From IMG/VR virus record IMGVR_UViG_3300028666_000002: a stretch of DNA of 64,000 bases; one strand, given 5' to 3'. The position numbers were made by a program, and so were the translations under genes. Below, in pieces: positions 38,593-62,556 of the stretch. The DNA is from a virus. The notes beneath the pieces are model-generated. The model worked only from the letters and a program-made list of their open reading frames with translations. It was not told where the DNA came from and ran no database searches. The number at the start of each line of letters is the position of its first letter. The stretch's first letter is position 1.

Positions 38593-38616
38593 TTGGTTGG
38601 ACTGGAGGGTTATACC

Positions 38617-39657
38617 ATGCAGTACACCGAAACACAGCTTTCAAAGCTTATACAGGACGTAGAACTAGAGTTCACGGCTCATTTGGCTAAGGCCGAAGAG
38701 GTCGGTAATACTCTTGCTAAGTCTGAAGATGGCGAACAGAAGCCTGAGAAAAAGCCGGAAGACGGCGAAAAGAAGCCGCCTTTCGAAGCTAAGCCCGAAG
38801 CTAAGCCCGAAGGTGAACAAAAGCCCGAAGGTGAAGAGAAACCTGAACAGGAAGCGGCGCCGGAAGGCGAAGCACATCCTGAGCAGGCTCCAAGCGAAGG
38901 CCATGATTATGATGAAGAGGACATGCAGCATATGCATAAAATGTATATGTCCATGTCAAAAGGCGAGCTAAAAGCACACCATGACGCGATTATGAAATGC
39001 GTTAGCGGTGGCGGAATGATGGGCAAGTCTGAAGAGGGTGGCGGAATTGGTAATACCAAATCTGAAAATCCTCCGCAGCCAAAAGTGAAGGGCGAGAACC
39101 TAGATTCTGATCCTAAAAATGGTGGAATTGATGCGGGTGCTCCTCACAATGCTCTTGGTCCGAAATCGCCAGCCAGCGATGCTAACGGCGCAAAGATTAA
39201 CAAATCTGAAGCTGCTAGACGAAATGGTGGAAAGATTGAAGAACAAGCGCCTCACAATTCGCCAGGTGCAAAATCACCGGCTAGCAAGGCAGATGGAGTT
39301 CAAATGCAAAAGTCAGAAAACACCGAAGTTGAGTTGCTTAAATCGGAACTTGGCTCGGCGAACACAAAATACGAAGAACTTAAGAAAAACTTTGATGGAG
39401 TTGCGGCTTTTTTGACCAAGCTGCTTGAGAAGAAAGCTGCTCCTGCAGGCAAGGCTATCACGTCCATGGATGTTATCGCGAAGAGCGAAGGCGCCGGGGA
39501 AGATAGTGAAAAGACACTTACGAAGGCTGATATTCATACCATTCTTTGTAAGAAAGCATCTGAACCTTCGTTACAGAAATCAGATAGAGACGCAATCAAC
39601 GTTTACTACGAACAAGGACAAGTAAACGTAACAGGAATTAGCCATTTGCTTAAATAG
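38617..39657 (+). CDS. capsid scaffolding/core protein (start moved to the ATG after GGAGG)
   Basis: Charged, low-complexity, directly upstream of the capsid gene; about ten xxK-[SAG]-[ED] motifs. Confidence 0.7.
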   Translation: MQYTETQLSKLIQDVELEFTAHLAKAEEVGNTLAKSEDGEQKPEKKPEDGEKKPPFEAKPEAKPEGEQKPEGEEKPEQEAAPEGEAHPEQAPSEGHDYDEEDMQHMHKMYMSMSKGELKAHHDAIMKCVSGGGMMGKSEEGGGIGNTKSENPPQPKVKGENLDSDPKNGGIDAGAPHNALGPKSPASDANGAKINKSEAARRNGGKIEEQAPHNSPGAKSPASKADGVQMQKSENTEVELLKSELGSANTKYEELKKNFDGVAAFLTKLLEKKAAPAGKAITSMDVIAKSEGAGEDSEKTLTKADIHTILCKKASEPSLQKSDRDAINVYYEQGQVNVTGISHLLK

Positions 39658-39683
39658 CAGTGGATTTTAATAAGGAGAATACA

Positions 39684-41081
39684 ATGATTGAACAACTTCA
39701 GTCACTTATGAAGGCGCTTGAAGCAGGAAGTTACAATGCTGCTCCAGGACAATTGGCTCAGGGAGCCGCTTTGATGGTCGAGGATCTCTCGCCCGTTATG
39801 CACAATGTAACGTTTGATGACAGTCATATTAAACTGCAAAAGATGCTTCCTTCGAAGGATGTGAAGTCTCAATTGCATCAGTTTAATCGTCAGTTGGATT
39901 ATGGTATCTTTGGTGGTTCGGCCCAGTTTGAAGGCGGAATCGGCGAAGAAGACACGTCTAACTATGTCCGTGCAGTGGTGCCGATGGCATACTACAGCAC
40001 GACTCGTAGAGTCACGGTTGCTGCTAACTACATCGGCGCGTTCGATGGCGTGAAGGCAGAAGATCGTGCGGCTGCGGACGCTGCGATGAAGCTCGCTGGC
40101 GATATCGAGTTCGACTCTTTCCGTGGACAGAGCGATTTCTCGAACGCGGGCGTGTTTGATGGTAACCCCCTTGCGGTTGCTAAGGTTCCGAATATGATTG
40201 GACTTGATCAACAGGTTCGTCAGTCGGACAGTCAGCAAAATACTCAGGATCTTATGTTTGCTGAATATGGTTCGGATCAGACGGTTGTACTGTCGGTCGG
40301 CGGAACTCTTACTCAGTCAGTGATCGAAGATAGTTCGGTTCGTTCGGCCATGAACATGGGCGCTGCGGACAGACTGGTTCTTGATCCGATCAGCTTGAGC
40401 GCGTATAACAAGATCGCGCACGCGAAAGAACGTATCATGCTTGCTGGCTCTGCTCAGGAAGCGACTGGTGCTCATTTGCGTACTCAGTGGACCTCTAGTG
40501 CGGTTGTCTCGCTCGAAGCTTCGCGCTTCCTGTCTGGCAAAACGCGCCCGGCGCGTCCGCGAAGTGGTAGCCCGGCGGCTCCGACGTTCACCATCGCTGA
40601 TGGTGGCCCGGCGGGTTCGTTGCTCCAAACCGGTAGCTATGCATATTATGTCACTGCGGTGACGATGCGTGGTGAGTCTCTCCCGTCTGCGGCGCAGACT
40701 CAGGCTGTTACGGCTGGCGATAAGGTCACTCTGACCATCACCGGTACGGGACAGTACTACTGCGTGTATCGCTCGGATCTCGGTGGAACGGCAGCGGTTG
40801 CCAAGTTCATCGGTAAGGTCGCGGCGAATGGCGCTGGATCGGGTGCGACGTTCACGGATCTCGGAAATCGTCAACCTGGCTCGGTCACGGGCTTCTTGGT
40901 TCAGGCGAATACGATGGGATTCGGACAGTTGGCTCCTTACAGCAAGCTGAAACTTGCGGTTAGCGATCTGTCACTTCCGGAGGCTCATTTCCGCTTCTTG
41001 TCCTTGGCTGCATACCAACCGAGGAAGAACGTGATCCTTGAGAATATCACGGGTCAGTTGGCTCCGAATAATCCTACGTAA
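39684..41081 (+). CDS. major capsid protein (start moved to the ATG after AAGGAG)
   Basis: ~465 aa; MK|ALEAG N-terminus and GAALMVEDL as in SPO1/A511-type capsids; FN3-like insertion YYVTAV...GES; followed by a terminator. Confidence 0.85.
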   Translation: MIEQLQSLMKALEAGSYNAAPGQLAQGAALMVEDLSPVMHNVTFDDSHIKLQKMLPSKDVKSQLHQFNRQLDYGIFGGSAQFEGGIGEEDTSNYVRAVVPMAYYSTTRRVTVAANYIGAFDGVKAEDRAAADAAMKLAGDIEFDSFRGQSDFSNAGVFDGNPLAVAKVPNMIGLDQQVRQSDSQQNTQDLMFAEYGSDQTVVLSVGGTLTQSVIEDSSVRSAMNMGAADRLVLDPISLSAYNKIAHAKERIMLAGSAQEATGAHLRTQWTSSAVVSLEASRFLSGKTRPARPRSGSPAAPTFTIADGGPAGSLLQTGSYAYYVTAVTMRGESLPSAAQTQAVTAGDKVTLTITGTGQYYCVYRSDLGGTAAVAKFIGKVAANGAGSGATFTDLGNRQPGSVTGFLVQANTMGFGQLAPYSKLKLAVSDLSLPEAHFRFLSLAAYQPRKNVILENITGQLAPNNPT

Positions 41082-47907: not shown

Positions 47908-47928
47908 TTATGGTAAAATAGTACTTAT

Positions 47929-48675
47929 ATGGCTAATAAAGTCGGAGAAGGCGTACATGACATCTACAAAGAACGAGCCCAGCAGGGTGGAGATGTTCTG
48001 TGGCATGTTAAGATAAAGGGCCAAACAGAATTGATGGAAGGGGTTCCTCTTCACATGTCCTTAAAAGTTTTTAATGACAAAAAAGAGATGAATCTTGATG
48101 AAATAAAAGAAAAGGTTAAAAAGTTTGATATAAAAACGCCAAACCCAGAGAAATTGAGATTTAAGACTACGATTTTTACATCTGAAAGAGATGGAAAAAA
48201 GTATTTTATGCTTCTGGTGGAAGGCGCAGATAAGACTTATGAAGATTTTTACAACAGCCTAAAGCATTGTGGAACTGTTTACGATAAATTCATGACTCAT
48301 ATTACTATAGATAAGGGATTGTACGATAAGATAAATGAAGAAGGATTAAAACCAGACGAAGTGGAGTTTAGCGTTCTTTCTATCGAATTTGGGGCTGGAA
48401 ATACAGTCCATGAGTTCAAGAAAAGTTTAGATGTAGAGATAATGAAAGAAACCATCTGTTTAAACTTAGATTTGTCTATAAAGCATTTTAGCGCATCTAT
48501 GTTGAAATCAGAAGTTTTTTGCAATTATTTAGAAGATCATCCGGGATTAGAACAGCAAATTGAACAAAAGCACAAAGATAGAATAGAGCATCATTTTGGT
48601 AATGATGAAAAATTAAAAGATTTCGCTTGGAAAAATGGAATAGATGCTGCTTACGCATCGAGGAATAAGAAGTAA
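47929..48675 (+). CDS. 2H phosphoesterase, Acb1 (T4 gp57B)-like
   Basis: Two Hx[S/T] motifs: PLHMSLK and FMTHITI, about 85 aa apart. Confidence 0.6.
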   Translation: MANKVGEGVHDIYKERAQQGGDVLWHVKIKGQTELMEGVPLHMSLKVFNDKKEMNLDEIKEKVKKFDIKTPNPEKLRFKTTIFTSERDGKKYFMLLVEGADKTYEDFYNSLKHCGTVYDKFMTHITIDKGLYDKINEEGLKPDEVEFSVLSIEFGAGNTVHEFKKSLDVEIMKETICLNLDLSIKHFSASMLKSEVFCNYLEDHPGLEQQIEQKHKDRIEHHFGNDEKLKDFAWKNGIDAAYASRNKK

Positions 48676-49776: not shown

Positions 49777-49777
49777 C

Positions 49778-50140
49778 ATGTGTGTAAAAATAGCAAATTC
49801 AATTTCTGAAGTCAAATACGATTCAAAAAAACCTTTAGAAGAACAGCTTAATGGTTATAATAAGGTTATCATAAAATATGAATCAAAAGACCCTGATATT
49901 GATAAATTTTTAGAAGAAATGGAAAGATGTTGTAAGACCGGAGTATGCTTAAACATAGATGTCGATATGTCGCATGGGAATAACCTCAAAGGAATGAGAG
50001 CAAAAAGACAGGCCAAAAGATTGGTAAAAGATTTGAATCTAAATGAAGCAATTAAGTTATTGGTAAATATGCATTCACAAGCAGATAGAACTTTGAAAGA
50101 AATGTCTGATTTTTGCTTAAACGGAAAGAATAATGAGTAA
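49778..50140 (+). CDS. hypothetical protein
   Basis: In operon. Confidence 0.55.
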   Translation: MCVKIANSISEVKYDSKKPLEEQLNGYNKVIIKYESKDPDIDKFLEEMERCCKTGVCLNIDVDMSHGNNLKGMRAKRQAKRLVKDLNLNEAIKLLVNMHSQADRTLKEMSDFCLNGKNNE

Positions 50141-51131
50141 TAGGCCTCCAATAGGTATTCAAATACCGGTGATAACGCCATTTGCACCACAAGTGCAAGA
50201 ATCATTTGATCTGAATAGATTAGATGTTTTTGTTACTAGTCTTGGCGTAGATTTTTCTCATTTTAGGGCTATGATTAGTCCTTTAGGAAAGAATGATATT
50301 GGTGAAATTCGTAAAAATGATGGGGTAGACCAAATCACCTCTAATGGTATGCTTTACCGTTGTGCCGGTATTTTTACCGCTACCATGACCGACAACACCA
50401 GGGAACAGAAACGTACCCAAAGTGGAGTCACTGATCCATCAGAATCTAGACTCGTGATGCCGCGTTTTTACAATGTTCCAACGCCTACGGGGGTAGCTCA
50501 AGGAGAGCGTATATATCTAATGCCTGGAGATAGACTATACCTGTCTGATCCTAATGCAGATGTTTTGGTAGCTAATGTAGAAGAAATAGCCTATCAACCT
50601 GATATAGATAATGAGGCGATGTTTCCTATTGTGCGTTTACAAGAGAAAATTATCGATAGCCGTAACATAGAGTATACTTGCGGTATTGATTTTGAAATAA
50701 CTCAAGGTTCTTGCGTAGTTGGAGGACAGTCTTTGGGTGGCAACATCAGATGGCTTTCCGGTGGGAAAAATCCTGGAATCGACCCATTAACTGGAAAAGG
50801 GCGTGTGTTTTCAATTAGATATCTATACAAAGCTTTTTATTATGTTATGGCACTACCAAAAGAAGTTAGGGTTACTAACGTAACCGGAGCAAATGGGGTT
50901 AGGGCGCCACAAAGGGCGGCGATGCATGCGATAATAGTGAGAGAATACGTATTCCATCAACAAAATCGCGGAGATAAGATGAATCAACTTAAGCCAAAGA
51001 CCCAAGCTAGAACCATTAAGTCTCCGGTGGAAAATATTCTTTATCCTAATCAGCCAGTTAATGTTGACATTAGTAATGTACAAAAAATTGACATGAGCAA
51101 TATAGAAAATGGGGATGATGAAAACGAATAA
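50133..51131 (+). CDS. putative neck/head-closure protein
   Basis: Position in the neck module; DRL...YTCGIDFEI...GNIRW...FSIRY pattern seen in myophage neck proteins. Confidence 0.5.
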   Translation: MSNRPPIGIQIPVITPFAPQVQESFDLNRLDVFVTSLGVDFSHFRAMISPLGKNDIGEIRKNDGVDQITSNGMLYRCAGIFTATMTDNTREQKRTQSGVTDPSESRLVMPRFYNVPTPTGVAQGERIYLMPGDRLYLSDPNADVLVANVEEIAYQPDIDNEAMFPIVRLQEKIIDSRNIEYTCGIDFEITQGSCVVGGQSLGGNIRWLSGGKNPGIDPLTGKGRVFSIRYLYKAFYYVMALPKEVRVTNVTGANGVRAPQRAAMHAIIVREYVFHQQNRGDKMNQLKPKTQARTIKSPVENILYPNQPVNVDISNVQKIDMSNIENGDDENE

Positions 51132-51175
51132 ACTATTGTCTTTGCAAGGTAATCTTTATCATATGAGGAAAGAAT

Positions 51176-51622
51176 ATGTCTAAAAAAGTAAGAAGCATTA
51201 ATAGTGGAATGATTGTAGATCCATCCACATTAGATAATTTGAAATACAACAACCCGGCTGGCTCTCAAAAAGTTAGCGAAGTTGGAAAGCATTTGTTGCC
51301 ACTAAAACACATTAGTGGTGGTGCCGTTGCCTATACTACAGACGCAAGCACAGCGCGAGTATTAGATAGGGCTGGAGCTTGTTTGGCTATTTATAACAAT
51401 AGCGGTACTGTTCAGTCACTCACCCTGAATGAAGCCAGTACGATTGCTTCTCTGGCTCCTGGCGTCACTGATTCTGCTGGACATGTTGGAATTCCTTGTA
51501 TGCCTAATTCTTGGACTTATGTAGCTTGCGGATACTCTAATTGGGTTATCACCAGCAGCGCTAATTTGTTGGTTTTCCTGATTAACGATGAGACCTACAT
51601 CACCGTCGAACAAACTTACTAA
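51176..51622 (+). CDS. putative virion protein
   Basis: Preceded by AATCTT and a GAGG RBS. Confidence 0.5.
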   Translation: MSKKVRSINSGMIVDPSTLDNLKYNNPAGSQKVSEVGKHLLPLKHISGGAVAYTTDASTARVLDRAGACLAIYNNSGTVQSLTLNEASTIASLAPGVTDSAGHVGIPCMPNSWTYVACGYSNWVITSSANLLVFLINDETYITVEQTY

Positions 51623-51631
51623 GGACTACCA

Positions 51632-52630
51632 ATGTCTAATGCTGATCTATTTTTAAAGAAAGCTCTAGGTGAAGATTTTTTTGAATCTTTAGCCAAGGTC
51701 GAACTGTATAAATATGGCACCAGAAGCGTATTAGATATTGAAGAAATCAAAACGGCACTCCAGATAGTTCCTCGCACTATTATCGCCCTTCTTATCAGAG
51801 AGCTTAGTCCCATGAATGTGGGTGATACCAAAGAAATTCCTCTCCTTGTGGGCGTTAATGCTATGATTAGGGCTACTAAACATGAGAGAGATTGTTTTAG
51901 TGGTGATGTTGAAGAAGATTCCAAGAAAATAGCAGAATTCAAATTTAGATCCTTGCCTGGGGTTGGCTTGATAATCATGTCCGCCTTTGAACTTTACGAT
52001 ATGGAGAATCTGATTAACTCTCCAAGTGCATCAGATTTGCCAATGGCACCTGCCCCACTTTCACAGCCTAATTTCGCAGAAGATATCGACAGTAAAGTAC
52101 AAAAGCTCATAGATGAAAGATTGGCCCTTCACAGTCTTGTTGAACAGGTTGTAGAAAAAAAGATAGCACACAAAGATGCTATTCACCAGATGATGTTGGC
52201 TAAGCTTACAGAAGAAATCAGTTCTTTAAAAAATAAGATGGTAGTTGTGTCTGCCAAAACAGAATTGGCTAGAAAAGAGGCAGAAGTGGCTAAACAACTA
52301 AATCCAGCTGTATTTGAGATTGAGGAAGAAAAAGAAACGCCCACTCCTATGAAGAAAAGTCGGCCTTTGCAAGAATTCTTGGAAAAGAGAAAGAAACCTA
52401 AAGAATTCTCTGTACAGATGGCAAAGGGAGAGATGGTTTCTTGTCCAGATTGTGGCAAGGACATTTTTAATGGAAACTCACTAACTCCTTGTATTTGTTA
52501 TGGAGATTATGGTAAAATATTTTTGAAGAAGACGGAGAATGGAATAAAAGTTAGATTCTCTAGAAGTTGGGATATTGATAATATAGAAATGTTATTAGAA
52601 GTATTGAGAAAAAAGAATAAACATGTCTAA
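51632..52630 (+). CDS. hypothetical protein with C-terminal zinc ribbon
   Basis: CPDC...CIC; several xxK-[ASG] motifs. Confidence 0.6.
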   Translation: MSNADLFLKKALGEDFFESLAKVELYKYGTRSVLDIEEIKTALQIVPRTIIALLIRELSPMNVGDTKEIPLLVGVNAMIRATKHERDCFSGDVEEDSKKIAEFKFRSLPGVGLIIMSAFELYDMENLINSPSASDLPMAPAPLSQPNFAEDIDSKVQKLIDERLALHSLVEQVVEKKIAHKDAIHQMMLAKLTEEISSLKNKMVVVSAKTELARKEAEVAKQLNPAVFEIEEEKETPTPMKKSRPLQEFLEKRKKPKEFSVQMAKGEMVSCPDCGKDIFNGNSLTPCICYGDYGKIFLKKTENGIKVRFSRSWDIDNIEMLLEVLRKKNKHV

Positions 52631-53423
52631 AAAAATTACAATAGAAGAGATCCAAAAAAGAATTTTGAAGATTCACGGGAATACTATTGTTTTAGATATA
52701 GACACTTACGTAGATACTCATACTCGTGCACGTTTTATAGATAGGGAATGTGGAGAATGGTGGGCTATACCAAAAAATGTGTATGGTTTAAAGAATGGTC
52801 ACCCAAATAAAAGAGCAAAAAAAATAAGTAAATCAAAAACTTTAACTATAGATCAGGTAAAAGAAAAAATAAGAGAAAAACACGGAAATTCTGTTATTTT
52901 GATTGAATCTACCTATATAAACACTATTACAAAATGTAAATTTATAGATGAAAAATATGGTGAATGGGAAACTGTTTCACTTAATGTTTTGTATGACAAC
53001 TGTAGGCATCCCAATGGCGGGAAAGAAAGGCGAGAAAATGCTCTCTTAAAGAGTTATGGCGTAAAAAATGCCACTCAAAATAAAGAGATAGCCTTGAGGG
53101 CTGCTAAAAGTGCCAAAAATACTTATATAAAATTCCACTGGAAAACGAATGAAGAACTTGTGTGTCAAGGTTCTTGGGAAGCAAAGGTGGTGGATTATTT
53201 TAATACCAACAAAACCGAGTACGATTGGCAATCTAAAACATTTGCTATGCCAGATGGTAAAACTTATAGACCTGATTTATTTTTAATTAATGAAAATAAA
53301 TGGGTAGAAATCAAGGGAAGATTTAGAATTACGGACAAGTTAAAATGGGAGTGGTTTAAATCTGAAAACCCTACAGCAGAAGTCTGGCAAAAAAGTAAGC
53401 TAAAAGAAATGGGAATTTTATAA
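52623..53423 (+). CDS. putative homing endonuclease (repeated N-terminal modules + PD-(D/E)xK domain)
   Basis: Two KHG...Y...KF.D..GEW...HP repeats; SWE...YRPD...VEIKG. Confidence 0.75.
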   Translation: MSKKITIEEIQKRILKIHGNTIVLDIDTYVDTHTRARFIDRECGEWWAIPKNVYGLKNGHPNKRAKKISKSKTLTIDQVKEKIREKHGNSVILIESTYINTITKCKFIDEKYGEWETVSLNVLYDNCRHPNGGKERRENALLKSYGVKNATQNKEIALRAAKSAKNTYIKFHWKTNEELVCQGSWEAKVVDYFNTNKTEYDWQSKTFAMPDGKTYRPDLFLINENKWVEIKGRFRITDKLKWEWFKSENPTAEVWQKSKLKEMGIL

Positions 53424-53424
53424 C

Positions 53425-55503
53425 ATGGATAAATCAGATAACATTGTATACATATCTTACGATGCGGATAGTGCGGGTCGCAAAATCGGTCAAGCGGTTT
53501 TGAACGATGATCCTGATGAAATGTCCAGAATTTCTGAACGCATTAAGGTCGGCAACGATCTGTTTAGCCGATGGGCAAAAGAACGAGATGGTAAGCAATA
53601 TTCTTCTGGTGGCGATCAAGGCGTATACGCTATTGATAAAAAGCATGTTGAAGGATTGGAAAAGCTAAGAAAGGATTACCACTATCTTACCGGCTTAACC
53701 GTATCTATAGGAATAGGTGTCCATCTATCCGAATCGGGACAAGCCCTCTTAATGGCAAAGTTAAAAGGGAAAAATCAGATAGTGTCTTTTGACAAAGAAA
53801 CAAAGAAAGAGATTCAGCAAATAAAAAAGCGAGTTAAGAAAGGAAAATTTAAGTCCATGGAAGAATATAAGATTGCAGAATCTTACCTGGACAAATCTGA
53901 GGCGGTTAAATCTATGAAAAAAGCTGAAAGTATCAATAATCAGAAATTAGAGGATGCTACTGAAACCGCCAATTATCAAGAGAAGCCAGAGGCTACTCAT
54001 GATGATTGTGAATATTGCAATCATCAAGAGAAGCCAGAGGCTACTCATGATGATTGTGAATATTGCAATCAAACTGATGGGATTGATCCTAATCATTGTG
54101 AATTTTGTCATGATGCTGAAACTGCAGAAGGTGAAGAGCCCTGCGAATTTTGCGATAGTTCAAAAGAATTAAATAATCCCGAAGCGTGTGAGTTTTGCAA
54201 TAGTGCTGAAACTCCAGAAGGCGAAGAGCCTTGCAAATTTTGTAGTTATGATGAGCCAGTAGATGAGGCGTTAGATTTTCCTGAGTTGGCAGAACAAGAT
54301 GATGAATTTGCTAATGCCCCTGAAAACCAGGGCTATGGAGAAAATGTAAAAACTCATCCAGACGGTCTTGGTACGAGCCTTGATTCCAACAATGATCAAG
54401 CTCCCGCTGGTTCGCCAGAAGAACATGAGCAATATGAAAAAATGGGAATGACTCCGCCAATGATAGGAAAGCCTACTTCTGAAGATCATGCCCCGCTCGG
54501 CCAAAATGCTCCCATGGCCTATGGTGCTGCTCCAGAATCAGCTAATGAAGATCCAGATGCAGAAACATTGGCCTATCAAGATCCTAGGGCCGCTGAAGGG
54601 GAAGCTGCAATAGATCCAGAAGATAATCATTCTAAAGAGGCCTTACTATCTATCGCTAGTGAAATAGAAAATGATGGTAATCCTCCCGCCCATGAAGCTG
54701 ACAGCATAGACGATACTCAAATTACTAATGATAGAATGGAAGGCAACACTAGTAGGCCAGATGGGTTCGAACAAAACACTCCTAGTGATATGGGCACAGC
54801 TGGTCCTAATAATACCGATCCAAATGATAACGAACCAGACTTTTATGGTGTTTTAGAGGAAGGTTTGAATCATGACGCCGATGGTATTCAAAAAGAAAAG
54901 GCTATCAAGTCTGTTTCTCAAGCACTAATGCAATTCAAGGGCTGTAAAGATATGCTAGAACAGTCTAAGGCTCAGATGCCACAACTTTATCAGGCTTCTA
55001 TTTCTATGCTAAAAGCCATGATTGAAATGGCTACTATGCTCGGATTAGGACAAAGCGGGGCCGGATTAGGACAAGAATCAGGACAAAATTCTGAATTAGG
55101 ACAAACACAAGAATCTCTGATGCCAGAACAACCTGAGCAATCGGCACAGCCCCAACAGGAGAATGACTGGCATGAGCCCTTTCCTACACATCCAGATCAG
55201 GGTGGAGAAGCTAAGCCCGGTCACGCGCCGTCTAGCAATGAAGAGGAGGATTCTCCCTCCCCACAGTCCCAAGCCGGTAGCGTAGGAACGCCTATCGGCA
55301 AATTATCAGCCAAACACACTACCGAACACGTTGCTAGAAATCCGATGCCAATAGGAGCAATCAATGTTTCTGGTCAGCAGAAGGTTATGGATGATCAGGG
55401 TAAAATAAGATTCATCGATAGAAAGCAAGGTCTTGTTATGGGTCCGTCTGGGGTTCCCGTAAAGCCTCCAAAAATGGGCAATGAAGTTTCTAAAAATAGG
55501 TAA
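53425..55503 (+). CDS. mCpol/GGD-palm nucleotidyltransferase-like domain fused to CxxC repeats and a long acidic region
   Basis: YISYDADSAG...SSGGDQ...LTVSIGIG...ALLMAKLKGKNQ in the first ~125 aa; six C[EK][YF]C repeats; Asp/Glu/Pro-rich remainder. Confidence 0.7.
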   Translation: MDKSDNIVYISYDADSAGRKIGQAVLNDDPDEMSRISERIKVGNDLFSRWAKERDGKQYSSGGDQGVYAIDKKHVEGLEKLRKDYHYLTGLTVSIGIGVHLSESGQALLMAKLKGKNQIVSFDKETKKEIQQIKKRVKKGKFKSMEEYKIAESYLDKSEAVKSMKKAESINNQKLEDATETANYQEKPEATHDDCEYCNHQEKPEATHDDCEYCNQTDGIDPNHCEFCHDAETAEGEEPCEFCDSSKELNNPEACEFCNSAETPEGEEPCKFCSYDEPVDEALDFPELAEQDDEFANAPENQGYGENVKTHPDGLGTSLDSNNDQAPAGSPEEHEQYEKMGMTPPMIGKPTSEDHAPLGQNAPMAYGAAPESANEDPDAETLAYQDPRAAEGEAAIDPEDNHSKEALLSIASEIENDGNPPAHEADSIDDTQITNDRMEGNTSRPDGFEQNTPSDMGTAGPNNTDPNDNEPDFYGVLEEGLNHDADGIQKEKAIKSVSQALMQFKGCKDMLEQSKAQMPQLYQASISMLKAMIEMATMLGLGQSGAGLGQESGQNSELGQTQESLMPEQPEQSAQPQQENDWHEPFPTHPDQGGEAKPGHAPSSNEEEDSPSPQSQAGSVGTPIGKLSAKHTTEHVARNPMPIGAINVSGQQKVMDDQGKIRFIDRKQGLVMGPSGVPVKPPKMGNEVSKNR
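53975..54070 (+). repeat. exact 48-bp tandem duplication (QEKPEATHDDCEYCN x2)
   Basis: ATCAAGAGAAGCCAGAGGCTACTCATGATGATTGTGAATATTGCAATC at 53975 and 54023. Confidence 0.95.
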
Positions 55504-55506
55504 GAA

Positions 55507-56256
55507 ATGTCTTTAAGAATTAAGATAGATGTTCAATCTCTTTCAAAGCAATTAAAAGAATATGCTATGGAAGCAGAAGCAGATATGAGGAAAGGGGTAG
55601 CCAATCTATCTGCTTTATCTCATGCTAAAATTAGAGATCTAGCTGCAGAAAAATTACATTCTACCAGAAATACATTTTTAGACAATCTATCTCAAGTAGA
55701 GGAAGTGGTTCCTGGCGTATTTGTTATAACATTGAATGAAGCAGCATTATTTATAGAAGAAGGGATGGAAAGACATGATATGAAGCCCGATCTTTTAAAG
55801 AAGAATGCTAAAGTGGGCAAAAATGGAAGATATAAGATAATTCCATTCGAACATTCTAAACTTCCGCAGAACATGACTGGAAAAGAACAGAATATAGTAC
55901 AACAAATTAAACAGAAATTGAAGGAAGAAAAAGTACCATTTAAGAAAATTGAATATGACGCAAAGGGAAATCCTAAAACAGGAAAGCTTCATAGTTTTAA
56001 TTGGGGTGGAGAAAGGCCCGGCAAGGGCAATACTGGAGTCCTACAAAGAGTTAGTATTTATCAATCAAAAGGGCCTACAGGAAATATTCGTAGAGATATA
56101 ATGACATTTAGAACGGTGAGCGAAGGACAGACAGATAAGTGGTACCATCCAGGAATTAAAGCGGCGAAAATATTAGATGAAGCTGGAGACTGGGCTGAAA
56201 AAGAATTTTACAATTCAATACTTCCAGAAATCATTGCAAAATGGAATGGTAGATAA
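55507..56256 (+). CDS. putative neck/tail-completion protein
   Basis: IEEG...DMK...IIPF...TFRTVS...WYHPG pattern; position upstream of the sheath. Confidence 0.55.
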   Translation: MSLRIKIDVQSLSKQLKEYAMEAEADMRKGVANLSALSHAKIRDLAAEKLHSTRNTFLDNLSQVEEVVPGVFVITLNEAALFIEEGMERHDMKPDLLKKNAKVGKNGRYKIIPFEHSKLPQNMTGKEQNIVQQIKQKLKEEKVPFKKIEYDAKGNPKTGKLHSFNWGGERPGKGNTGVLQRVSIYQSKGPTGNIRRDIMTFRTVSEGQTDKWYHPGIKAAKILDEAGDWAEKEFYNSILPEIIAKWNGR

Positions 56257-57022
56257 ACAATAATCCTTTTACAGATTTCATTTTCCCTTTACAAACTTTC
56301 ACTATATCACTATTGTCACATTTATTTTTTGCAGCTGCTTCTATAATTGAATTATAGATTTCCAAAATAATCCTGTCTGAATTAATTTTTGCTACCCTCT
56401 TATTGTTTGTAATAGGTTTATTTTTTGGTATTGATTTTTTTCTCGGTAGTACTGCATCTATTTTTTTATTTTTAAAAAATTTCCACTGATATCCGCCAGC
56501 ACTTTTTTTCTTTCCTTTACAACATTTTCCTATATCGGAATTGTTAATATTGGTAATTAAAAAAGCATCTGCGCTAGAAGAATGTTCTTTTATAAAAAAA
56601 CCATCTTTCGTATATTGATATACAGGGATAAGGTGTGCCTCTCTTATTTTTCTTTTTTGATCTGCGCTGTGTTTCCTACCTTTTCCGGCTTTAGACAAAA
56701 GTTTGCGGGTTTCATCTGATATAAAACTCCCCCTACCATTACCTCCACTTGATAAGTTATAGCCATTTTTCATAGAATTATAGTATTCTATCCAATAAAT
56801 TTCTTTATTATTGAGATCTTCCAATGAATCTGCCGTATCTATAGTCTCTATTTTAAAGTTTTCAACCCCATATTTTTTGATAGCAAAAGAAAGTTTTCTA
56901 CATCCTCTATCGGGCTTTAAGTGATATTTAAAATGTTCTAAAACTCTTTCTTCTACCGTTCTAGTAGTTTGACCTATATAGCTTTTGCCATCTATGATAT
57001 TAGTAAGTTTGTAGACATACAT
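56231..57022 (-). CDS. GIY-YIG homing endonuclease with NUMOD repeats
   Basis: YVYKLTN...YIGQT, E, GYN; KSAGGYQW motif. Confidence 0.88.
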   Translation of the reverse strand: MYVYKLTNIIDGKSYIGQTTRTVEERVLEHFKYHLKPDRGCRKLSFAIKKYGVENFKIETIDTADSLEDLNNKEIYWIEYYNSMKNGYNLSSGGNGRGSFISDETRKLLSKAGKGRKHSADQKRKIREAHLIPVYQYTKDGFFIKEHSSSADAFLITNINNSDIGKCCKGKKKSAGGYQWKFFKNKKIDAVLPRKKSIPKNKPITNNKRVAKINSDRIILEIYNSIIEAAAKNKCDNSDIVKVCKGKMKSVKGLLFIYHSILQ

Positions 57023-57110
57023 ATAGAAAAGATTGTGTTAGGCATTTCGAAAATGGGAATCTCATACACTAATCTTAATATAAATATTCAAATAAATCAA
57101 TAGGGTAATT

Positions 57111-58124
57111 ATGGGATTTTTTCCGTCAGATGCAGTGCTACAAACGGTCGTTAGGCTGTTTTTAGATGATATGCGCAATAATATATGGTTGATCGATCAT
57201 ATGATGGAAGATTTTGTCAAAAATCCTTATCTCAAGAAAGCATATGGTCAGAAACAGATCGATGCATGTAAGGAATTTCTCCTTAATAATCAAATAGATG
57301 TTTATGTAGGATGGCAATCTGGCAAAATAAAACCACCATGTATTTCCATAGGATTAGGGCCGATGCCAGAGCGCGAAGGTCTAAAATTCATGGCCGATAA
57401 GGATACGGAAGAGATTGTTCTTCTTCCTAATGAGATTGGTAAACCGATAGCCTATATGGTTAAACCCTTTGTTCCTACTGGTTACGATGAAACCACAGGG
57501 GAATTGGGATTACCAACAAATATAGAGATAGACCAGATAGCTCCTGGGATGGTTTTAGTTAACCCAACCAATGCTATTGGATATACTATACAAAGTATAA
57601 CGGCAAATAGTTTATTTATCGATCCTGGACTAGCCATAGATGCTAGCAAACTTGGGATTCTTCCTCGTTATCCCTTTTATAAAGCTAGAGTGGAACATAC
57701 CTATTCAACTGGCAATTACAATATCATCTGTACGGCCCATGGCGACCCCCAAAATGCCATTTGGCTACACGACATCACCTTATATGGTCTTTTACGTTAT
57801 AAAGAGAGTTTACTAGAAGCCCTAGGACTTTCTGAAACAGTAATGTCTTCGGGACCGTTGGAAGTTAATCAAGAATTAGGCACTCCTGGTGGGGATACTG
57901 TTTGGGATAGAACCATTTCTCTCGTGGGTCAAATTGAAAATACATTTATAAAACAACCGCATCGTCTCATCGAAGTAATTAATTTTAAAAAGAAAATAGG
58001 CAAAGGTCCAAAATCTGGTTGGACTGGCGGCATTATCTTCTTGGCTAATAAAACCACACCAGCTTTCATGATGGATAACGATGAGCCTTGGTCTACCGTG
58101 GAAGATGATGATTCCGAAGATTAA
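57111..58124 (+). CDS. putative tail terminator/completion protein
   Basis: PPCISI motif; position before the sheath; preceded by AATCTTAA. Confidence 0.5.
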   Translation: MGFFPSDAVLQTVVRLFLDDMRNNIWLIDHMMEDFVKNPYLKKAYGQKQIDACKEFLLNNQIDVYVGWQSGKIKPPCISIGLGPMPEREGLKFMADKDTEEIVLLPNEIGKPIAYMVKPFVPTGYDETTGELGLPTNIEIDQIAPGMVLVNPTNAIGYTIQSITANSLFIDPGLAIDASKLGILPRYPFYKARVEHTYSTGNYNIICTAHGDPQNAIWLHDITLYGLLRYKESLLEALGLSETVMSSGPLEVNQELGTPGGDTVWDRTISLVGQIENTFIKQPHRLIEVINFKKKIGKGPKSGWTGGIIFLANKTTPAFMMDNDEPWSTVEDDDSED

Positions 58125-58141
58125 GCAATCTTATTAATACT

Positions 58142-58486
58142 ATGCCAGGATTTATTAAAACGCCAGCTGATGAGAAAAAGTGGAACGCCATCAAGCATTC
58201 TGTAGCGAAACAACGAGGTAAAAGCGTTGAAGATTTTACAGATAGAGATTGGGCTACGGTCAATGGAGCTTGGCATAAGAGTGAATTTGAAGAAATCACC
58301 AAATCTATCGCTTCCATGCCACGCATGCCAAGTGGGATGAAGATGCCTAAGCCTAAAAGCATGCCTCAAGCCCTCGATAAACCTTCGAAGTTTTTCAAAT
58401 CAGAACCAGAAGAATTTTCTCATATGAAACACCCTACTTTGATGAAATTACGTGATTTTTTGAAACATACTCGTAGTAAAAAATAA
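58142..58486 (+). CDS. hypothetical small basic protein
   Basis: Preceded by GCAATCTTA; WHKSE and FFKSE motifs. Confidence 0.55.
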   Translation: MPGFIKTPADEKKWNAIKHSVAKQRGKSVEDFTDRDWATVNGAWHKSEFEEITKSIASMPRMPSGMKMPKPKSMPQALDKPSKFFKSEPEEFSHMKHPTLMKLRDFLKHTRSKK

Positions 58487-58557
58487 GATTAATAAAATCA
58501 AATACTTAAGGTAAATACTAGGCAGGGGCACACAATCTTAACACTAGGTATGGAGAC

Positions 58558-59610: not shown

Positions 59611-59613
59611 TTT

Positions 59614-59883: not shown

Positions 59884-59894
59884 GGAGAATAATC

Positions 59895-62045
59895 ATGTCA
59901 TTACGACTAGTTACGCCTTTTATTAATACAAATATTCCAGGAAGTTATCCGAATATTATTGTGCAGAGCCAGCCCGTTGGATTGGGTAGCTCTGGCGTGG
60001 TTGTCATCATGGGAGAAGCCGCTCAGGGTCCTAGCTATCAGCAGATCCCGTTAAAGACCAACTATTTTACTCCTAATCAGCTTGCTCTTGTTACGCAAAT
60101 CTACGGTAGCGGACAAATTGTTGATGCCTTTACTGCTTTGGCCGCTCCTTCTAATGATCCAGATATCACGGGTACAGCCAATCAAGTTTACGTTGTGAAG
60201 ACTAACACTGGAACCATCGCATCTGCTGCTATTCCTGGTGGTTATGGAACTCTATTTTTTAACAACTATGGTACTCCCGGAAATAACTACGCATATCAAG
60301 TAACGAATACTCAGACCGAAGTTACTCCGACCGTTGGCGGAAATACAGTCCCTGCTTTTGGCGCACCTCTTAACGGCGCAAGTTTCACTCTTAGAATGAA
60401 TGGATTTACTGGGGCAGTAGTTACCCTGAGTGCTACTCCCGCACTGCATGCCAATATTGGTACTTTGATTACGGAACTCAATGGATTACTTCCCGCTGGA
60501 ATTACGGCTAGTCTTGGGGTGGCACTTAATAGTCTTCAACTTACCATGGCAGTTGATCCGGGTGCGAATGCAGAAGGATGGGGTAAATCATTTGAATTGA
60601 TTGATTCCACTCCTGGCGATCTCGCTTCTCTTGGGTTGGCGGCTGGACTTACGGTATCTGCTGCAGAACCGGCGATTGAAGTTGTAACTTCTAATTCTGG
60701 AGTAAATTTTAGCGAAACCTTAGACATCGCTTCTGAAATTGGTTTGCAAATTGGATATCAGGGCACGACTGCTTTGATGACAATCAACGCCACATCGCTT
60801 ATCACTACGGTTGCTGGTGGAGTTGGTGCGAGTCTGAATATTACCCTTAGCCAATTTAATACGTTGGCAGGCTTGGTAGCTTTCATTCAAACGCAGCCAG
60901 GTTATACGGTCAGCGTTTCTGCTGCAGTTCAACAGCTGTCGCCAAGTATTCTGGATCAGGTGGCTGCGATTGGTATCGCTTCTACTGGTACATCGCTTAT
61001 GCCTGGCCGAGTTAAGATAGCATTGTATAATTTTGAAACTGCGTTGGGCACCTCAAAAGCTTTGGTTTTCACAAATACCGCACATGCGGGATTGCCAAGT
61101 TCGATGAGCCTTCCGGCTTTACTGGCTGGTGGCGGAAGAGGACCCACGCTTGCGGCAGATATCGTTAATGCATTGGCGCAAATGGCCGGTATTAATGTTA
61201 ATATCATTGTTCCGTTATTTTCGCAAGATGCATCCAGAGATATTACTGCGGGGATGACATCTTCAGCGTCCACATATACGATTGCGGCTATCAACGCACT
61301 GACAAAGAGTCACTGCATCGAGTATAGCACACCACAATTGAAAAAGAATCGTCAAGCGATTCTCTCAATGTTAGATACCTACGCTAACGACAAAAGTGAA
61401 GCACAAGGACTTGCATTTTATCGTTGCTCTCTTACGATGCAACAGATTCAGCAAGTTAATTCCCAAGGAGTTATTACAACGTTTCAGCCTTGGTACGCCT
61501 CATGCTTGGCGGCGGGTATGCAAGCGGGTGGTTTCTATAAAGCCATCGTTAATAAAGCGGCCAATATCATCAGTTATATCGACCCGGTTGGGTTTGATTC
61601 GGGCGATCCCGGCGATGTGAGTGATGCTCTTTCTGCTGGTCTGCTTTTCCTGTCAACAGATACGAGCAGGGCGGGTTACTGGGTCAGTGATCAGACTACG
61701 TATGGCTATGATACTAATTTTGTTTACAATAGTATCCAAGCTGTGTATACATCCGATCTCGTTGCCCTTGATCTGGCACAAAGCTTCTGGTTACAGTTCG
61801 GCGGTCAATCAGATGCCGATGTTACCGCAGCTTCTGGATTGGCATTCTTAGGCCAAAAGATGGCTGGCTATCTAGCGCTTAAGCTTATTGGTTCAAGCAG
61901 CGATGCGCCGCTTGGATGGAAGAATCCGAATATTATTATCAATGCACCAGAAATGGATGTGTCGGTGGAAATTAAGCTCAGTACGGCAATTTACTTTATT
62001 CCGCTTAACATCAACGTTTCGCAGATAATGAATTCGGCAAGTTAA
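59895..62045 (+). CDS. contractile tail sheath protein
   Basis: 716 aa; PGSY, IMGEA..GP N-terminus; DQTTY...SIQ and IYFIP.NI C-terminus; followed by a tube-sized gene. Confidence 0.88.
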   Translation: MSLRLVTPFINTNIPGSYPNIIVQSQPVGLGSSGVVVIMGEAAQGPSYQQIPLKTNYFTPNQLALVTQIYGSGQIVDAFTALAAPSNDPDITGTANQVYVVKTNTGTIASAAIPGGYGTLFFNNYGTPGNNYAYQVTNTQTEVTPTVGGNTVPAFGAPLNGASFTLRMNGFTGAVVTLSATPALHANIGTLITELNGLLPAGITASLGVALNSLQLTMAVDPGANAEGWGKSFELIDSTPGDLASLGLAAGLTVSAAEPAIEVVTSNSGVNFSETLDIASEIGLQIGYQGTTALMTINATSLITTVAGGVGASLNITLSQFNTLAGLVAFIQTQPGYTVSVSAAVQQLSPSILDQVAAIGIASTGTSLMPGRVKIALYNFETALGTSKALVFTNTAHAGLPSSMSLPALLAGGGRGPTLAADIVNALAQMAGINVNIIVPLFSQDASRDITAGMTSSASTYTIAAINALTKSHCIEYSTPQLKKNRQAILSMLDTYANDKSEAQGLAFYRCSLTMQQIQQVNSQGVITTFQPWYASCLAAGMQAGGFYKAIVNKAANIISYIDPVGFDSGDPGDVSDALSAGLLFLSTDTSRAGYWVSDQTTYGYDTNFVYNSIQAVYTSDLVALDLAQSFWLQFGGQSDADVTAASGLAFLGQKMAGYLALKLIGSSSDAPLGWKNPNIIINAPEMDVSVEIKLSTAIYFIPLNINVSQIMNSAS

Positions 62046-62075
62046 TTATTTTTAATGTAAGTAAGGAGAATTAAA

Positions 62076-62534
62076 ATGGCTGCTAAAACAATAGTTGGCG
62101 GTAGAACATTCGTAACAGTCGATGGTACTGTCGTTGGTGTGTTTGATAGTTGCACCATCAATGAAGGATTGACTCTAGAAGATATCCATATCCTCGGCAA
62201 ATATGGGGCTGACGAAATTGTGGCTACATCGTATAATGCCATAACTGTCTCTTGTACGGGGTTTAGAATTTACGGAAATGGTGTAAAGGTATTGCCAAAA
62301 TTTCCTACGGTGAATGATCTACTTCTTCTTGGTACGGTTACTCTCTCTGTTCAGGATAGACAAAACCTTAAGGGCAACCCTATCGCCACTATAATTAACT
62401 GCGTACCTGAGACCAATAGCGAGAATTTTAATGCCCGTGCAACCTCTAAGATCAATATCAGCTACCGTGGTACACTTTTAGTTGATGAAAGTGCCCCTAA
62501 TGATGGTGAAAACGGAGCAACGTCTCTTCCATAA
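62076..62534 (+). CDS. tail tube protein
   Basis: 152 aa beta-rich gene right after the sheath, strong RBS, followed by a terminator. Confidence 0.8.
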   Translation: MAAKTIVGGRTFVTVDGTVVGVFDSCTINEGLTLEDIHILGKYGADEIVATSYNAITVSCTGFRIYGNGVKVLPKFPTVNDLLLLGTVTLSVQDRQNLKGNPIATIINCVPETNSENFNARATSKINISYRGTLLVDESAPNDGENGATSLP

Positions 62535-62556
62535 TAGTATCTAACTTATTAATATT

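What the first reader, a model, noticed from the sequence alone, without database searches (positions are those of the whole stretch)
53425..55503. Phage-encoded mCpol-like nucleotide-signal synthase domain in the virion module
Seen: the first ~125 aa carry the palm-domain pattern Y.S.DAD..G / GGD / TVSIGIG / AL..AK..GKN, typical of minimal CRISPR polymerase (mCpol) and GGDEF/Cas10-related cyclases. The domain is followed by LDKSE and MKKAE motifs, then CxxC repeats and an acidic tail. Established: mCpol domains are known from bacterial defence operons; in Panoptes the mCpol enzyme OptS constitutively makes a cyclic dinucleotide that keeps the effector OptE off, and phage Acb proteins trigger it by depleting the signal. 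Inference: a packaged, protease-released mCpol could resupply or spoof such a signal at injection. With the 2H phosphoesterase 5 kb upstream, this would be a make-one-signal, destroy-another counter-defence pair that I do not know to be described.
Basis: partly seen in the sequence, partly recalled or inferred. Interest (0 to 1): 0.82.

Follow-up and report, generated by a model that had tools for sequence, protein, structure and literature searches.

The report
Phage-borne mCpol nucleotide synthase fusion
A large phage carries, among its head and tail genes, a protein whose front end is an intact copy of the small "mCpol" enzyme that bacteria use to make cyclic-nucleotide immune signals, so this phage family probably makes such a signal itself to tamper with host defence.

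Summary
ORF 53425-55503 (692 aa) starts with a genuine mCpol palm domain. It scores 45 bits on Pfam PF18182 (cut-off 26). The predicted fold superposes on the solved Panoptes enzyme OptS (TM 0.88, rmsd 1.7 Å). Both OptS active-site aspartates are invariant in the family. The GGDQ variant is no sign of inactivity, because OptS itself has glycine at that position.

The gene lies between the capsid and sheath genes of an Mx1-like myophage of about 170 kb. It has at least 75 syntenic orthologues in metagenomes. One orthologue is an unannotated protein of the cultured Myxococcus phage Mx1.

The rest of the protein is a conserved, mostly disordered "carrier". One nested lineage lost the mCpol domain and, separately, the probable 2H phosphoesterase 5 kb upstream, but kept the carrier. 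More distant phages fuse the same domain to NUDIX, SAM lyase, GNAT, kinase-like and ParB domains.

The junction motif K-S/A-E matches a motif eightfold enriched in the scaffold protein. This hints at cleavage by the prohead protease.

Packaging, the enzyme's product and an anti-Panoptes role remain inference. I found no paper describing a phage mCpol. The scan noted this same stretch once before, in an overlapping window.

The parts
53425..55503 (+). Whole ORF (692 aa, P0001): mCpol domain fused to a conserved carrier
53449..53787 (+). mCpol palm domain, aa 9-121. Catalytic D13/D15 and G62-G63-D64 are present; S37 matches the OptS base-specificity site S30
   Evidence: Pfam; PDB profile; fold; invariant columns
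53794..53964 (+). Conserved helical extension after the palm domain, aa 124-180 (basic, pI 9.5)
53887..53928 (+). Junction motifs LDKSE (aa 155-159) and MKKAE (164-168): candidate prohead-protease sites
   Evidence: K[SA]E stands at this column in 44 of 65 orthologues; the same motif is enriched in the scaffold protein
54007..54243 (+). Array of six CxxC zinc-knuckle motifs. The family consensus has five; the first comes from a 16-aa tandem duplication. Weak likeness to the DnaJ Cys-rich domain
54841..55038 (+). Conserved helical hairpin of the carrier, aa 473-538 (59% mean pairwise identity; also matched in the Mx1 orthologue)
55357..55428 (+). Conserved basic C-terminal beta-hairpin, aa 645-668 (68% mean pairwise identity)
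47929..48675 (+). Probable 2H phosphoesterase (HMS at aa 42, HIT at aa 124). It shares presence and absence with the mCpol domain
38593..39657 (+). Scaffold-like protein just upstream of the capsid gene, with 8 K[SA]E motifs
39660..41081 (+). Major capsid protein (52% identical to that of Myxococcus phage Mx1)
51632..52630 (+). Conserved upstream neighbour (coiled coil plus C-terminal zinc ribbon). In relatives it overlaps the start of the mCpol gene
52623..53423 (+). HNH homing-endonuclease gene inserted between that neighbour and the mCpol gene; absent at this place in relatives
55507..58124 (+). Conserved downstream neighbours (249 aa and 337 aa), interrupted by a minus-strand GIY-YIG endonuclease gene. 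They also follow mCpol proteins in distant phages
59895..62534 (+). Tail sheath and tail tube genes, followed by a strong terminator at 62556-62589

Best explanation
The gene encodes a two-part late protein of an Mx1-like myophage. Part one (aa 1 to about 160) is a catalytically intact mCpol-type palm-domain nucleotidyltransferase. By homology with OptS/mCpol it should condense NTPs into a cyclic di- or oligonucleotide. Part two (aa about 190-692) is a conserved, largely disordered carrier: a zinc-knuckle array, acidic linkers with short conserved motifs, a helical hairpin and a basic beta-hairpin. The carrier has a role of its own, because relatives that lost the enzyme keep it. The enzyme is therefore an accessory effector module, not a building block of the virion. 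The same module is joined in other phages to NUDIX, SAM lyase, GNAT, kinase-like and ParB domains, as in polyvalent counter-defence proteins. The most likely course of events is this. The protein is made with the structural proteins. The carrier takes it into the prohead. The prohead protease cuts at the conserved K-S/A-E junction. The freed cyclase enters the next host with the DNA, or else acts late in the producing cell. There it makes a nucleotide that interferes with cyclic-nucleotide immunity, working together with the probable 2H phosphodiesterase of the same module. Shown here: the domain identity, the fold, the conserved catalytic residues, the synteny, the modularity, the co-loss with the 2H gene and the motif statistics. 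Inferred: enzyme activity, the product, packaging, cleavage and the target.
For: Domain and fold:
- Pfam mCpol at 45 bits, cut-off 26.
- The family profile matches solved mCpol chains at E 2e-17 to 4e-17.
- The model has pLDDT 93.9 and best matches OptS 9pd0/9mnr at TM 0.88, rmsd 1.7 Å. GGDEF domains reach TM about 0.55 and Csm1 scores lower.

Conservation:
- D13, D15, G62 and D64 are invariant in 62 diverse sequences. D13 and D64 align with the OptS active-site residues Asp6 and Asp57 (PMC12657218, read).
- The mCpol domain is among the better conserved parts: 52% mean pairwise identity against 26-31% in three of the four linkers.

Distribution and context:
- 75 full-length homologues, on contigs up to 171 kb, and 41 IMG/VR loci.
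- The gene order from capsid to sheath is constant.
- The Mx1 orthologue WNM70340.1 matches the profile at E 6e-22.
- The block is tightly packed on one strand. The first strong terminator on that strand comes after the tube gene.

Accessory nature:
- The mCpol-less clade is monophyletic and nested among mCpol-bearing phages.
- A 100%-complete genome of that clade has neither mCpol nor the 2H-slot protein, yet it keeps the carrier and the five genes in between.
- More distant phage contigs fuse the domain to NUDIX, SAM lyase, DUF3293, DUF5661, GNAT, ParB_N and a PI3/PI4-kinase-like domain.

Cleavage hint:
- The scaffold protein has 8 K[SA]E motifs against 0.97 expected; 0 of 20,000 shuffles reach 8. 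The enrichment is conserved in relatives and in Mx1.
- The same motif stands at the mCpol-carrier junction in 44 of 65 orthologues.

Neighbouring slot:
- The 2H-slot protein follows the same 'enzyme in front, conserved module behind' plan. Its rear module is shared with the GNAT-ART-NUDIX polyvalent protein of Mx1 and is weakly SLT-like.
Against: - There is no direct evidence of enzyme activity, product, packaging or cleavage.
- The two K[SA]E motifs in this protein are not more than its composition predicts (2 against 0.9). Only their conserved position counts, and that could reflect a helix end.
- The most distant orthologues, and Mx1, lack the motif at that junction.
- The co-loss with the 2H gene is a single lineage.
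- The 2H call is not supported by Pfam or PDB sequence searches.
- The carrier resembles no solved virion protein, so it could be non-structural.
- A late gene can also act in the producing cell.
- If the 2H enzyme cleaves cyclic nucleotides broadly, it would also destroy the cyclase's product.
Confidence: 0.5

Rival explanations
1. It is an active cyclase that is not packaged. It works late in the producing cell, for example to keep a guard system quiet while the phage's nucleotide-degrading enzymes act, or to time lysis. The C-terminal part would then be a regulatory or localising region, not a virion-targeting carrier.
For: The catalytic residues are conserved. The carrier has no detectable likeness to known virion proteins. 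Most of it is predicted disordered. There are no proteomic data.
Against: The position inside the capsid-to-sheath block is conserved even in distant phages. The junction motif is shared with the scaffold protein. Relatives have polyvalent-type fusions, a class predicted to be delivered with the DNA (PMC5512222, read).
Confidence: 0.27
2. It is specifically an anti-Panoptes device. The phage mCpol would supply the 'all-clear' nucleotide (2'3'-c-di-AMP, cA3 or similar) that holds the host OptE or CARF-TM effector off while the phage's 2H phosphodiesterase removes CBASS or CRISPR signals.
For: The nearest solved relatives are Panoptes OptS/mCpol enzymes. S37 aligns with the OptS base-specificity residue S30 (PMC12657218, read). 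The domain co-occurs with the probable 2H enzyme in every locus examined and both are lost in one lineage. Acb1-type enzymes are known triggers of type II Panoptes (PMC13577387, read).
Against: The product is unknown. The hosts are unknown, so it is unknown whether they carry Panoptes. The 2H enzyme might degrade the decoy. Mx1 has the mCpol orthologue but no 2H domain in the slot. Identity to OptS is only 26%.
Confidence: 0.15
3. It is a GGDEF-like diguanylate cyclase that changes host c-di-GMP physiology (surface structures, motility, biofilm) and does not target immunity.
For: Most orthologues carry GGDE, which is closer to GGDEF than OptS is. Phage proteins annotated as diguanylate cyclases exist in Bacillus phages G and SP-15 and Bordetella phage CN1. 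Mx1 also carries a separate GGDEF protein in its head module.
Against: There is no Pfam GGDEF hit even at E up to 10. The fold match to mCpol (TM 0.88) is much better than to GGDEF (about 0.55), and the domain lacks the extra GGDEF elements. There is no RxxD I-site five residues before the motif (read directly from the sequence).
Confidence: 0.08
4. It is a pseudo-enzyme: a palm domain kept only as a structural or binding module of a virion or scaffold protein.
For: The window phage and 19 others have Q instead of E after the catalytic Asp. The protein is fused to a structural-looking carrier.
Against: The metal-binding aspartates and the glycines of the hairpin are invariant across sequences 33-65% identical to the window protein. 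The active enzyme OptS has Gly at the Q/E position. A complete phage genome does without the domain, so it is not needed for assembly.
Confidence: 0.05

Closest known systems
Panoptes OptS / mCpol (PDB 9mnr, 9pd0, 9nwn; PMC12657218, PMC12657230)
   Same: It has the same minimal palm fold (TM 0.88, rmsd 1.7 Å over 116 columns), the same two active-site aspartates, the same conserved Ser at the base-contact position, and about the same domain length.
   Different: Identity is only 26%. The gene is phage-encoded, not in a bacterial defence operon. The domain is fused to a carrier of about 530 aa. No 2TM-beta or CARF-TM partner lies nearby. It carries a GGDE/GGDQ motif where OptS has AADG.
Polyvalent proteins of phages and conjugative elements (Iyer, Burroughs, Anand, de Souza, Aravind 2017, PMC5512222)
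   Same: An enzymatic effector domain is carried on a large phage protein near the structural genes. Relatives join the same mCpol domain to NUDIX, GNAT, ParB and SAM lyase. That paper already predicted GGDEF cyclase domains and 2H phosphoesterases in such proteins as means to interfere with host nucleotide signalling.
   Different: The paper does not mention mCpol (0 occurrences). The window protein has only one recognisable enzyme domain. Its carrier is not one of the described anchor domains such as MuF.
T4 Alt and internal proteins (capsid-targeted, cut by the prohead protease, injected with the DNA); from my own knowledge
   Same: The proposed logic is the same: a late-made accessory protein taken into the prohead, cleaved at a protease motif that the scaffold shares, and delivered to the next host.
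   Different: The T4 targeting sequence is a short N-terminal peptide, whereas here the presumed targeting part is a long C-terminal carrier. The motif is K-S/A-E, not L/I-x-E. Nothing has been shown experimentally.
Phage-encoded GGDEF proteins (Bacillus phage G gp350, SP-15, Bordetella phage CN1, Mx1 WNM70324.1)
   Same: They are phage-borne palm-domain cyclase homologues of unknown role.
   Different: Those are classical GGDEF domains (TM 0.5-0.56 to this model). They are not fused to this carrier.

Membership tests
mCpol domain (Pfam PF18182) | Score above the curated Pfam cut-off over the whole profile | tested here: met
   45.3 bits against 26.4, profile positions 1-113 of 114; precomputed PF18182 on the orthologues
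mCpol domain (Pfam PF18182) | Minimal palm fold that superposes on solved mCpol structures | tested here: met
   Model pLDDT 93.9; OptS 9pd0/9mnr TM 0.88, rmsd 1.7 Å; 9nwn TM 0.86
mCpol domain (Pfam PF18182) | Two active-site acidic residues (KpOptS Asp6 and Asp57) | tested here: met
   D13 and D64 align with them and are invariant in the 62-sequence domain alignment and in all 65 mCpol-bearing orthologues
mCpol domain (Pfam PF18182) | Synthesis of a cyclic di- or oligonucleotide from NTPs | not testable with these tools
   Needs an enzyme assay
Panoptes defence system (mCpol with a 2TM-beta or CARF-TM effector) | Two-gene operon with a membrane effector that binds the nucleotide | tested here: not met
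   No neighbour has a CARF or S-2TM-beta hit, and no two-TM protein is seen
Panoptes defence system (mCpol with a 2TM-beta or CARF-TM effector) | Encoded by the bacterium, often next to CBASS | tested here: not met
   The gene lies in a phage capsid-to-sheath block, and its orthologues lie on IMG/VR viral contigs of about 170 kb and in phage Mx1
GGDEF diguanylate cyclase (PF00990) | Pfam GGDEF match and a GG[DE]EF motif | tested here: not met
   No GGDEF hit at E up to 10. The motif is GGDQG here and GGDE followed by G, F or C in relatives. The fold TM is only about 0.55
Polyvalent proteins (Iyer et al. 2017) | Several unrelated enzymatic or binding domains in one phage polypeptide | tested here: inconclusive
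   The window protein has one recognised enzyme domain plus a zinc-knuckle array. Relatives with the same mCpol domain do have NUDIX, SAM lyase, GNAT, ParB_N and kinase-like domains
Polyvalent proteins (Iyer et al. 2017) | Delivered into the host with the DNA | not testable with these tools
   Needs virion proteomics or injection assays
Capsid-targeted, protease-processed internal proteins (T4 Alt/IP type) | A prohead-protease site shared with scaffold or core proteins | tested here: inconclusive
   K[SA]E: 8 in the scaffold against 0.97 expected, conserved in relatives, and at the junction in 44 of 65 orthologues. The protease specificity is unknown, and the most distant orthologues and Mx1 lack the motif at that junction
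2H phosphoesterase / Acb1 (for ORF 47929-48675) | Two HxT/S motifs in a 2H fold | tested here: inconclusive
   H42 and H124 are invariant within HxS/T motifs. Atlas feature score 0.93 and structure TM 0.40-0.48 by the query (up to 0.67 by the smaller Atlas model) to 2_5_RNA_ligase2, Acb1 and LigT clusters. No Pfam or PDB sequence hit

The most novel reading that the evidence does not exclude
A whole clade of myophages of about 170 kb, including the cultured Myxococcus phage Mx1, and many other phages with polyvalent proteins, package a working mCpol cyclase. They would inject it together with a 2H phosphodiesterase as a coupled 'write one nucleotide signal, erase the others' counter-defence. 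This would be a phage answer to guard systems such as Panoptes that watch the cyclic-nucleotide pool.
Probability: 0.15. Interest if true: 0.88.

Novelty: new variant of a known kind. Interest (0 to 1): 0.7.

Why it matters
mCpol enzymes became known in 2025-2026 as the signal makers of the bacterial Panoptes guard systems. In the papers I could search they are treated as host enzymes only.

This work shows a large, well conserved phage branch of the family. A search of 1.8 billion protein-cluster representatives found 753 clusters at E up to 0.001 and 540 at E up to 1e-10. The contexts I sampled were all phage contigs. In them the domain sits in structural gene blocks or in multi-enzyme proteins of the counter-defence type.

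If the enzyme is active, phages do more than soak up and degrade immune nucleotides: they also synthesise them. That would add a new move to the signalling arms race.

It is directly testable, because an orthologue exists in a cultured phage. Mx1 is already known to resist a CBASS plus type III-B CRISPR island of M. xanthus that stops phage Mx4 (PMC11506125).

Tried and rejected
- **DNA and protein searches of the phage record collection.** blastn and tblastn with the whole gene found nothing. Only the N-terminal part found Mx1, and weakly. A local unfiltered tblastn and a profile search were needed to find the orthologue.
- **Family libraries.** PHROGs gives no family for the protein. PADLOC gives only a weak CARF_HEPN_mCpol hit.
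- **The search for related loci.** It failed with the diverse domain alignment because no conserved stretch was long enough. It worked with the full-length alignment.
- **Carrier and neighbours against PDB sequences.** The carrier gives only a weak DnaJ zinc-finger likeness. The two downstream neighbours give nothing.
- **2H protein.** Pfam and PDB sequence searches, including a family profile, were negative.
- **Papers.** Burroughs et al. 2015, which defined mCpol, is not in the library.
- **Standalone homologue.** P0089 (130 aa) could not be traced to a contig.
- **Promoter and terminator scan.** It found nothing above chance inside the block.
- **Toprim.** I rejected a Toprim reading of the DxD motif (E 0.09-0.16, below cut-off).
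- **GGDQ as decay.** I rejected this reading; see the rival explanations.
- **Complex prediction.** I ran no further search on a homodimer. A pass would mostly reflect likeness to the solved mCpol structures.
Full report
**1. The observation**

The ORF at 53425-55503 on the plus strand is open and gives a 692-aa protein, P0001. These are YISYDADSAG, SSGGDQG, LTVSIGIG and ALLMAKLKGKN, then LDKSE and MKKAE, then six CxxC motifs and a very acidic stretch.

The middle of the protein is acidic (aa 181-470, pI about 4.05). The last 50 residues are basic (pI 10.3).

**2. Identity of the N-terminal domain**

- Pfam gives mCpol (PF18182) at E=1.3e-11 and 45.3 bits, against a curated cut-off of 26.4. 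The match runs over the whole profile.
- No GGDEF hit appears even at E up to 10.
- A profile of 62 diverse homologues of the domain finds the solved mCpol chains 9nwn (E 2.4e-17) and 9mnr/9pd0, Panoptes OptS (3.9e-17). The next best chain, a GGDEF domain, scores E 0.02.
- AlphaFold2 on that alignment gives pLDDT 93.9 and pTM 0.86.
- Foldseek against the PDB ranks OptS first: TM 0.88 by the target, rmsd 1.7 Å, 26% identity. mCpol 9nwn follows. GGDEF domains come next at TM about 0.55, then Csm1/Cas10.

In the profile alignment the protein's D13 and D64 fall on Asp6 and Asp57 of KpOptS. The Panoptes paper names these as the active site (PMC12657218). S37 falls on OptS S30, a base-contact position whose mutation changes the product (same paper).

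D13, D15, G62, D64, G96, K112 and G115 are invariant in the 62 sequences.

OptS, an active enzyme, has Gly at that position (AADG). Among the 65 orthologues that carry the domain, 45 have GGDE and 20 have GGDQ. GGDQ persists in orthologues only 34-39% identical to the window protein and always comes with DAD (DGD is found only with GGDE). That looks like a maintained active-site variant.

**3. Where the gene sits**

The window is a myophage.
- The major capsid protein (39660-41081) is 52% identical to that of Myxococcus phage Mx1, a phage of 169.6 kb.
- The tail sheath is at 59895-62045. The tail tube is at 62076-62534, by synteny with Phi812_tail_tube genes in relatives.
- G+C content is about 39%, so the host is not a Myxococcus.

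From 46583 to 62534 the main genes are tightly packed on one strand, apart from one homing-endonuclease gene on the opposite strand. The first strong terminator on that strand follows the tube gene.

The protein has 75 full-length homologues in metagenomes, on contigs up to 171 kb. There are 41 loci in IMG/VR, several on contigs of 155-177 kb.

The gene order is constant: capsid, then 158 aa, 285 aa, the 2H protein, 166 aa, 120 aa, 332 aa, 148 aa and the 332-aa zinc-ribbon protein. Then come the mCpol protein, 249 aa, 337 aa, further genes, and the sheath.

Mx1 has an orthologue at the same place, WNM70340.1, annotated as hypothetical. It matches the N-terminal domain and the helical hairpin and matches the domain profile at E 6.3e-22.

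**4. The rest of the protein is a carrier with a life of its own**

The alignment of orthologues shows the following elements after the palm domain:
- two conserved helices;
- a junction with the consensus AYLxK[SA]E;
- five CxxC pairs;
- acidic linkers with short conserved motifs;
- a helical hairpin (aa 473-538);
- a PFPxHPD motif;
- a basic beta-hairpin (aa 645-668).

The full-length model is confident only in those islands. Mean pairwise identity is 52% in the mCpol domain, 59% in the hairpin, 68% in the C-terminal hairpin and 26-31% in three of the four linkers. Sequence searches against PDB find nothing for the carrier beyond a weak DnaJ zinc-finger likeness.

Some relatives lack the mCpol domain. 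In L020 the orthologue starts directly at the Cys-rich array, with both flanking genes in place. A tree built from three neighbouring proteins puts the four mCpol-less loci in one clade nested among mCpol-bearing phages. With Mx1 as outgroup, this reads as a secondary loss.

The L020 genome is 170.6 kb and 100% complete by CheckV. It has no mCpol anywhere. So the enzyme is dispensable for making virions, while the carrier is kept.

**5. The same domain in other phage proteins**

An exhaustive phmmer search with aa 1-140 against 1.8 billion cluster representatives finds 753 clusters at E up to 0.001 and 540 at E up to 1e-10. Nearly all of the best 150 carry the domain inside proteins of 300-1300 aa, mostly at the N-terminus.

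Pfam scans of twenty of the longer ones show fusions to NUDIX, S-adenosylmethionine lyase, DUF3293, DUF5661, GNAT acetyltransferases, ParB_N and a PI3/PI4-kinase-like domain. The contexts I sampled are phage contigs. Homologues of the 249-aa and/or 337-aa neighbours and the sheath lie downstream in several of them.

This is the architecture of the 'polyvalent proteins' of Iyer et al. 2017. That paper predicted GGDEF and 2H domains in such proteins as tools against host nucleotide signalling, but it does not mention mCpol (PMC5512222).

**6. The partner 5 kb upstream**

ORF 47929-48675 (248 aa) has HMS at residue 42 and HIT at residue 124. In an alignment of 13 proteins from the same slot, the two histidines are invariant within HxS/T motifs.

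ESM-Atlas look-alikes are viral clusters with 2_5_RNA_ligase2, Acb1 and LigT families. The feature score is 0.93 and all ten best hits share the clan. Structure TM is 0.40-0.48 by the query, and up to 0.67 when normalised by the smaller Atlas model. Pfam and PDB sequence searches are negative. So this is a probable 2H enzyme.

Every one of the 27 other loci that cover both slots and carry the mCpol domain has a slot protein with the twin motifs. The three mCpol-less loci that cover the slot have no gene there at all. The complete mCpol-less genome has none anywhere.

The two deletions are separated by about 4 kb of retained genes, so they were at least two events in one lineage. This is suggestive of a functional link, but it is a single lineage.

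Longer slot proteins add a weakly SLT-like module (AQVESSGGK; Pfam SLT E 0.007, below the cut-off). The rear part of the 1479-aa GNAT-ART-NUDIX polyvalent protein of Mx1, which occupies the same slot, matches that module at E 3e-7. Both slots therefore follow one plan: variable enzyme(s) in front, conserved module behind.

**7. A possible protease site**

The scaffold-like protein just upstream of the capsid gene (38593-39657) has eight K[SA]E motifs. Composition-preserving shuffles give 0.97 ± 0.96, and none of 20,000 shuffles reaches eight. The window average is 1.8 motifs per 1000 aa.

Scaffold proteins of seven relatives and of Mx1 carry 4-10 such motifs. This is the pattern expected of maturation-protease sites in a scaffold; that step is an inference by analogy with T4, from my own knowledge.

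In the mCpol protein the motif stands exactly at the enzyme-carrier junction in 44 of 65 orthologues. It is absent there in the most distant orthologues. In Mx1 the motifs lie after the hairpin instead. The two copies in the window protein are not by themselves more than chance.

**8. What it most likely is**

The gene most likely encodes an accessory nucleotide-signal synthase riding on a conserved late protein. It was probably recruited as a counter-defence or host-manipulation module.

My estimates are:

| Claim | Probability |
|---|---|
| Domain identity | about 0.95 |
| Catalytic activity | about 0.75 |
| Accessory effector role | about 0.6 |
| Virion packaging and protease release | about 0.45 |
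| Specific anti-Panoptes decoy role | about 0.15-0.2 |

It is not a Panoptes system. No effector partner lies nearby, no neighbour has two transmembrane segments, and the gene is viral. It is not a classical GGDEF enzyme.

**9. Novelty**

Full-text searches for mCpol, and reading of the two Nature 2025 papers, the type II Panoptes paper and a 2026 review, found no phage-encoded mCpol.

Phage GGDEF proteins exist as database annotations, and their presence in polyvalent proteins was predicted in 2017. I therefore rate this as a new variant of a known kind.

Mx1 offers a laboratory entry point. It plates on M. xanthus expressing a CBASS plus type III-B CRISPR island that blocks Mx4, and the authors suspected extra countermeasures in the larger Mx1 genome (PMC11506125).

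The scan had noted this same stretch once before, in an overlapping window.

Noticed in passing
window 52623-53423 (+), 48675-49292 (+), 56231-57022 (-), 45795-46550 (+), 62620-63423 (+): Five homing-endonuclease-type genes (HNH, GIY-YIG, NUMOD) are scattered through the structural block. One sits directly between the zinc-ribbon neighbour and the mCpol gene, and another directly after the 2H gene. Relatives lack them at these places, and there the flanking genes overlap.
   Followed up: partly
window 53980-54075 (aa 186-217 of the protein): A 16-aa tandem duplication (QEKPEATHDDCEYCN, twice) gives this phage a sixth CxxC motif. The family consensus has five.
   Followed up: partly
window 38593-39657 (+): The scaffold-like protein carries eight K[SA]E motifs against about one expected. 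The enrichment is conserved in relatives and Mx1. This is a candidate recognition motif of the prohead protease of this phage group.
   Followed up: yes
window 32983-34461 (-) and 34489-35262 (-): A nicotinamide/nicotinate phosphoribosyltransferase (NAPRTase family, E 4e-37) lies next to a ribose-phosphate pyrophosphokinase-like protein. From my own knowledge this pair is known from phages as an NAD+ rebuilding pathway against NAD-depleting defences.
   Followed up: no
window 47929-48675; L002:5371-6447, L029:5816-6949, L033:1488-3869; Mx1 L001:24404-28843: The slot after the 285-aa gene is variable. It holds the 2H domain alone (232-250 aa), 2H plus a weakly SLT-like module (about 350-390 aa), a 793-aa form, or in Mx1 a 1479-aa GNAT-ART-NUDIX polyvalent protein that shares the rear module.
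   Followed up: partly
Mx1 L001:17173-17904: Mx1 also encodes a separate 243-aa GGDEF protein (Pfam E 1.3e-9) between its prohead protease and capsid genes, so it has two palm-domain cyclase homologues in its virion module. Mx1 also has a 619-aa PI3/PI4-kinase-like protein there, and a kinase-like domain is fused to mCpol in another phage (P0143).
   Followed up: partly
window 42647-44779 (+): A 710-aa protein two genes after the capsid gene has three CHB_HEX_C/Fn3-associated repeats and a complete ice-binding-like domain (E 6e-65).
   Followed up: no
window 35434-37680 (-): A 748-aa protein has a weak GNAT hit and three K[SA]E motifs. It may be another multi-domain effector.
   Followed up: no
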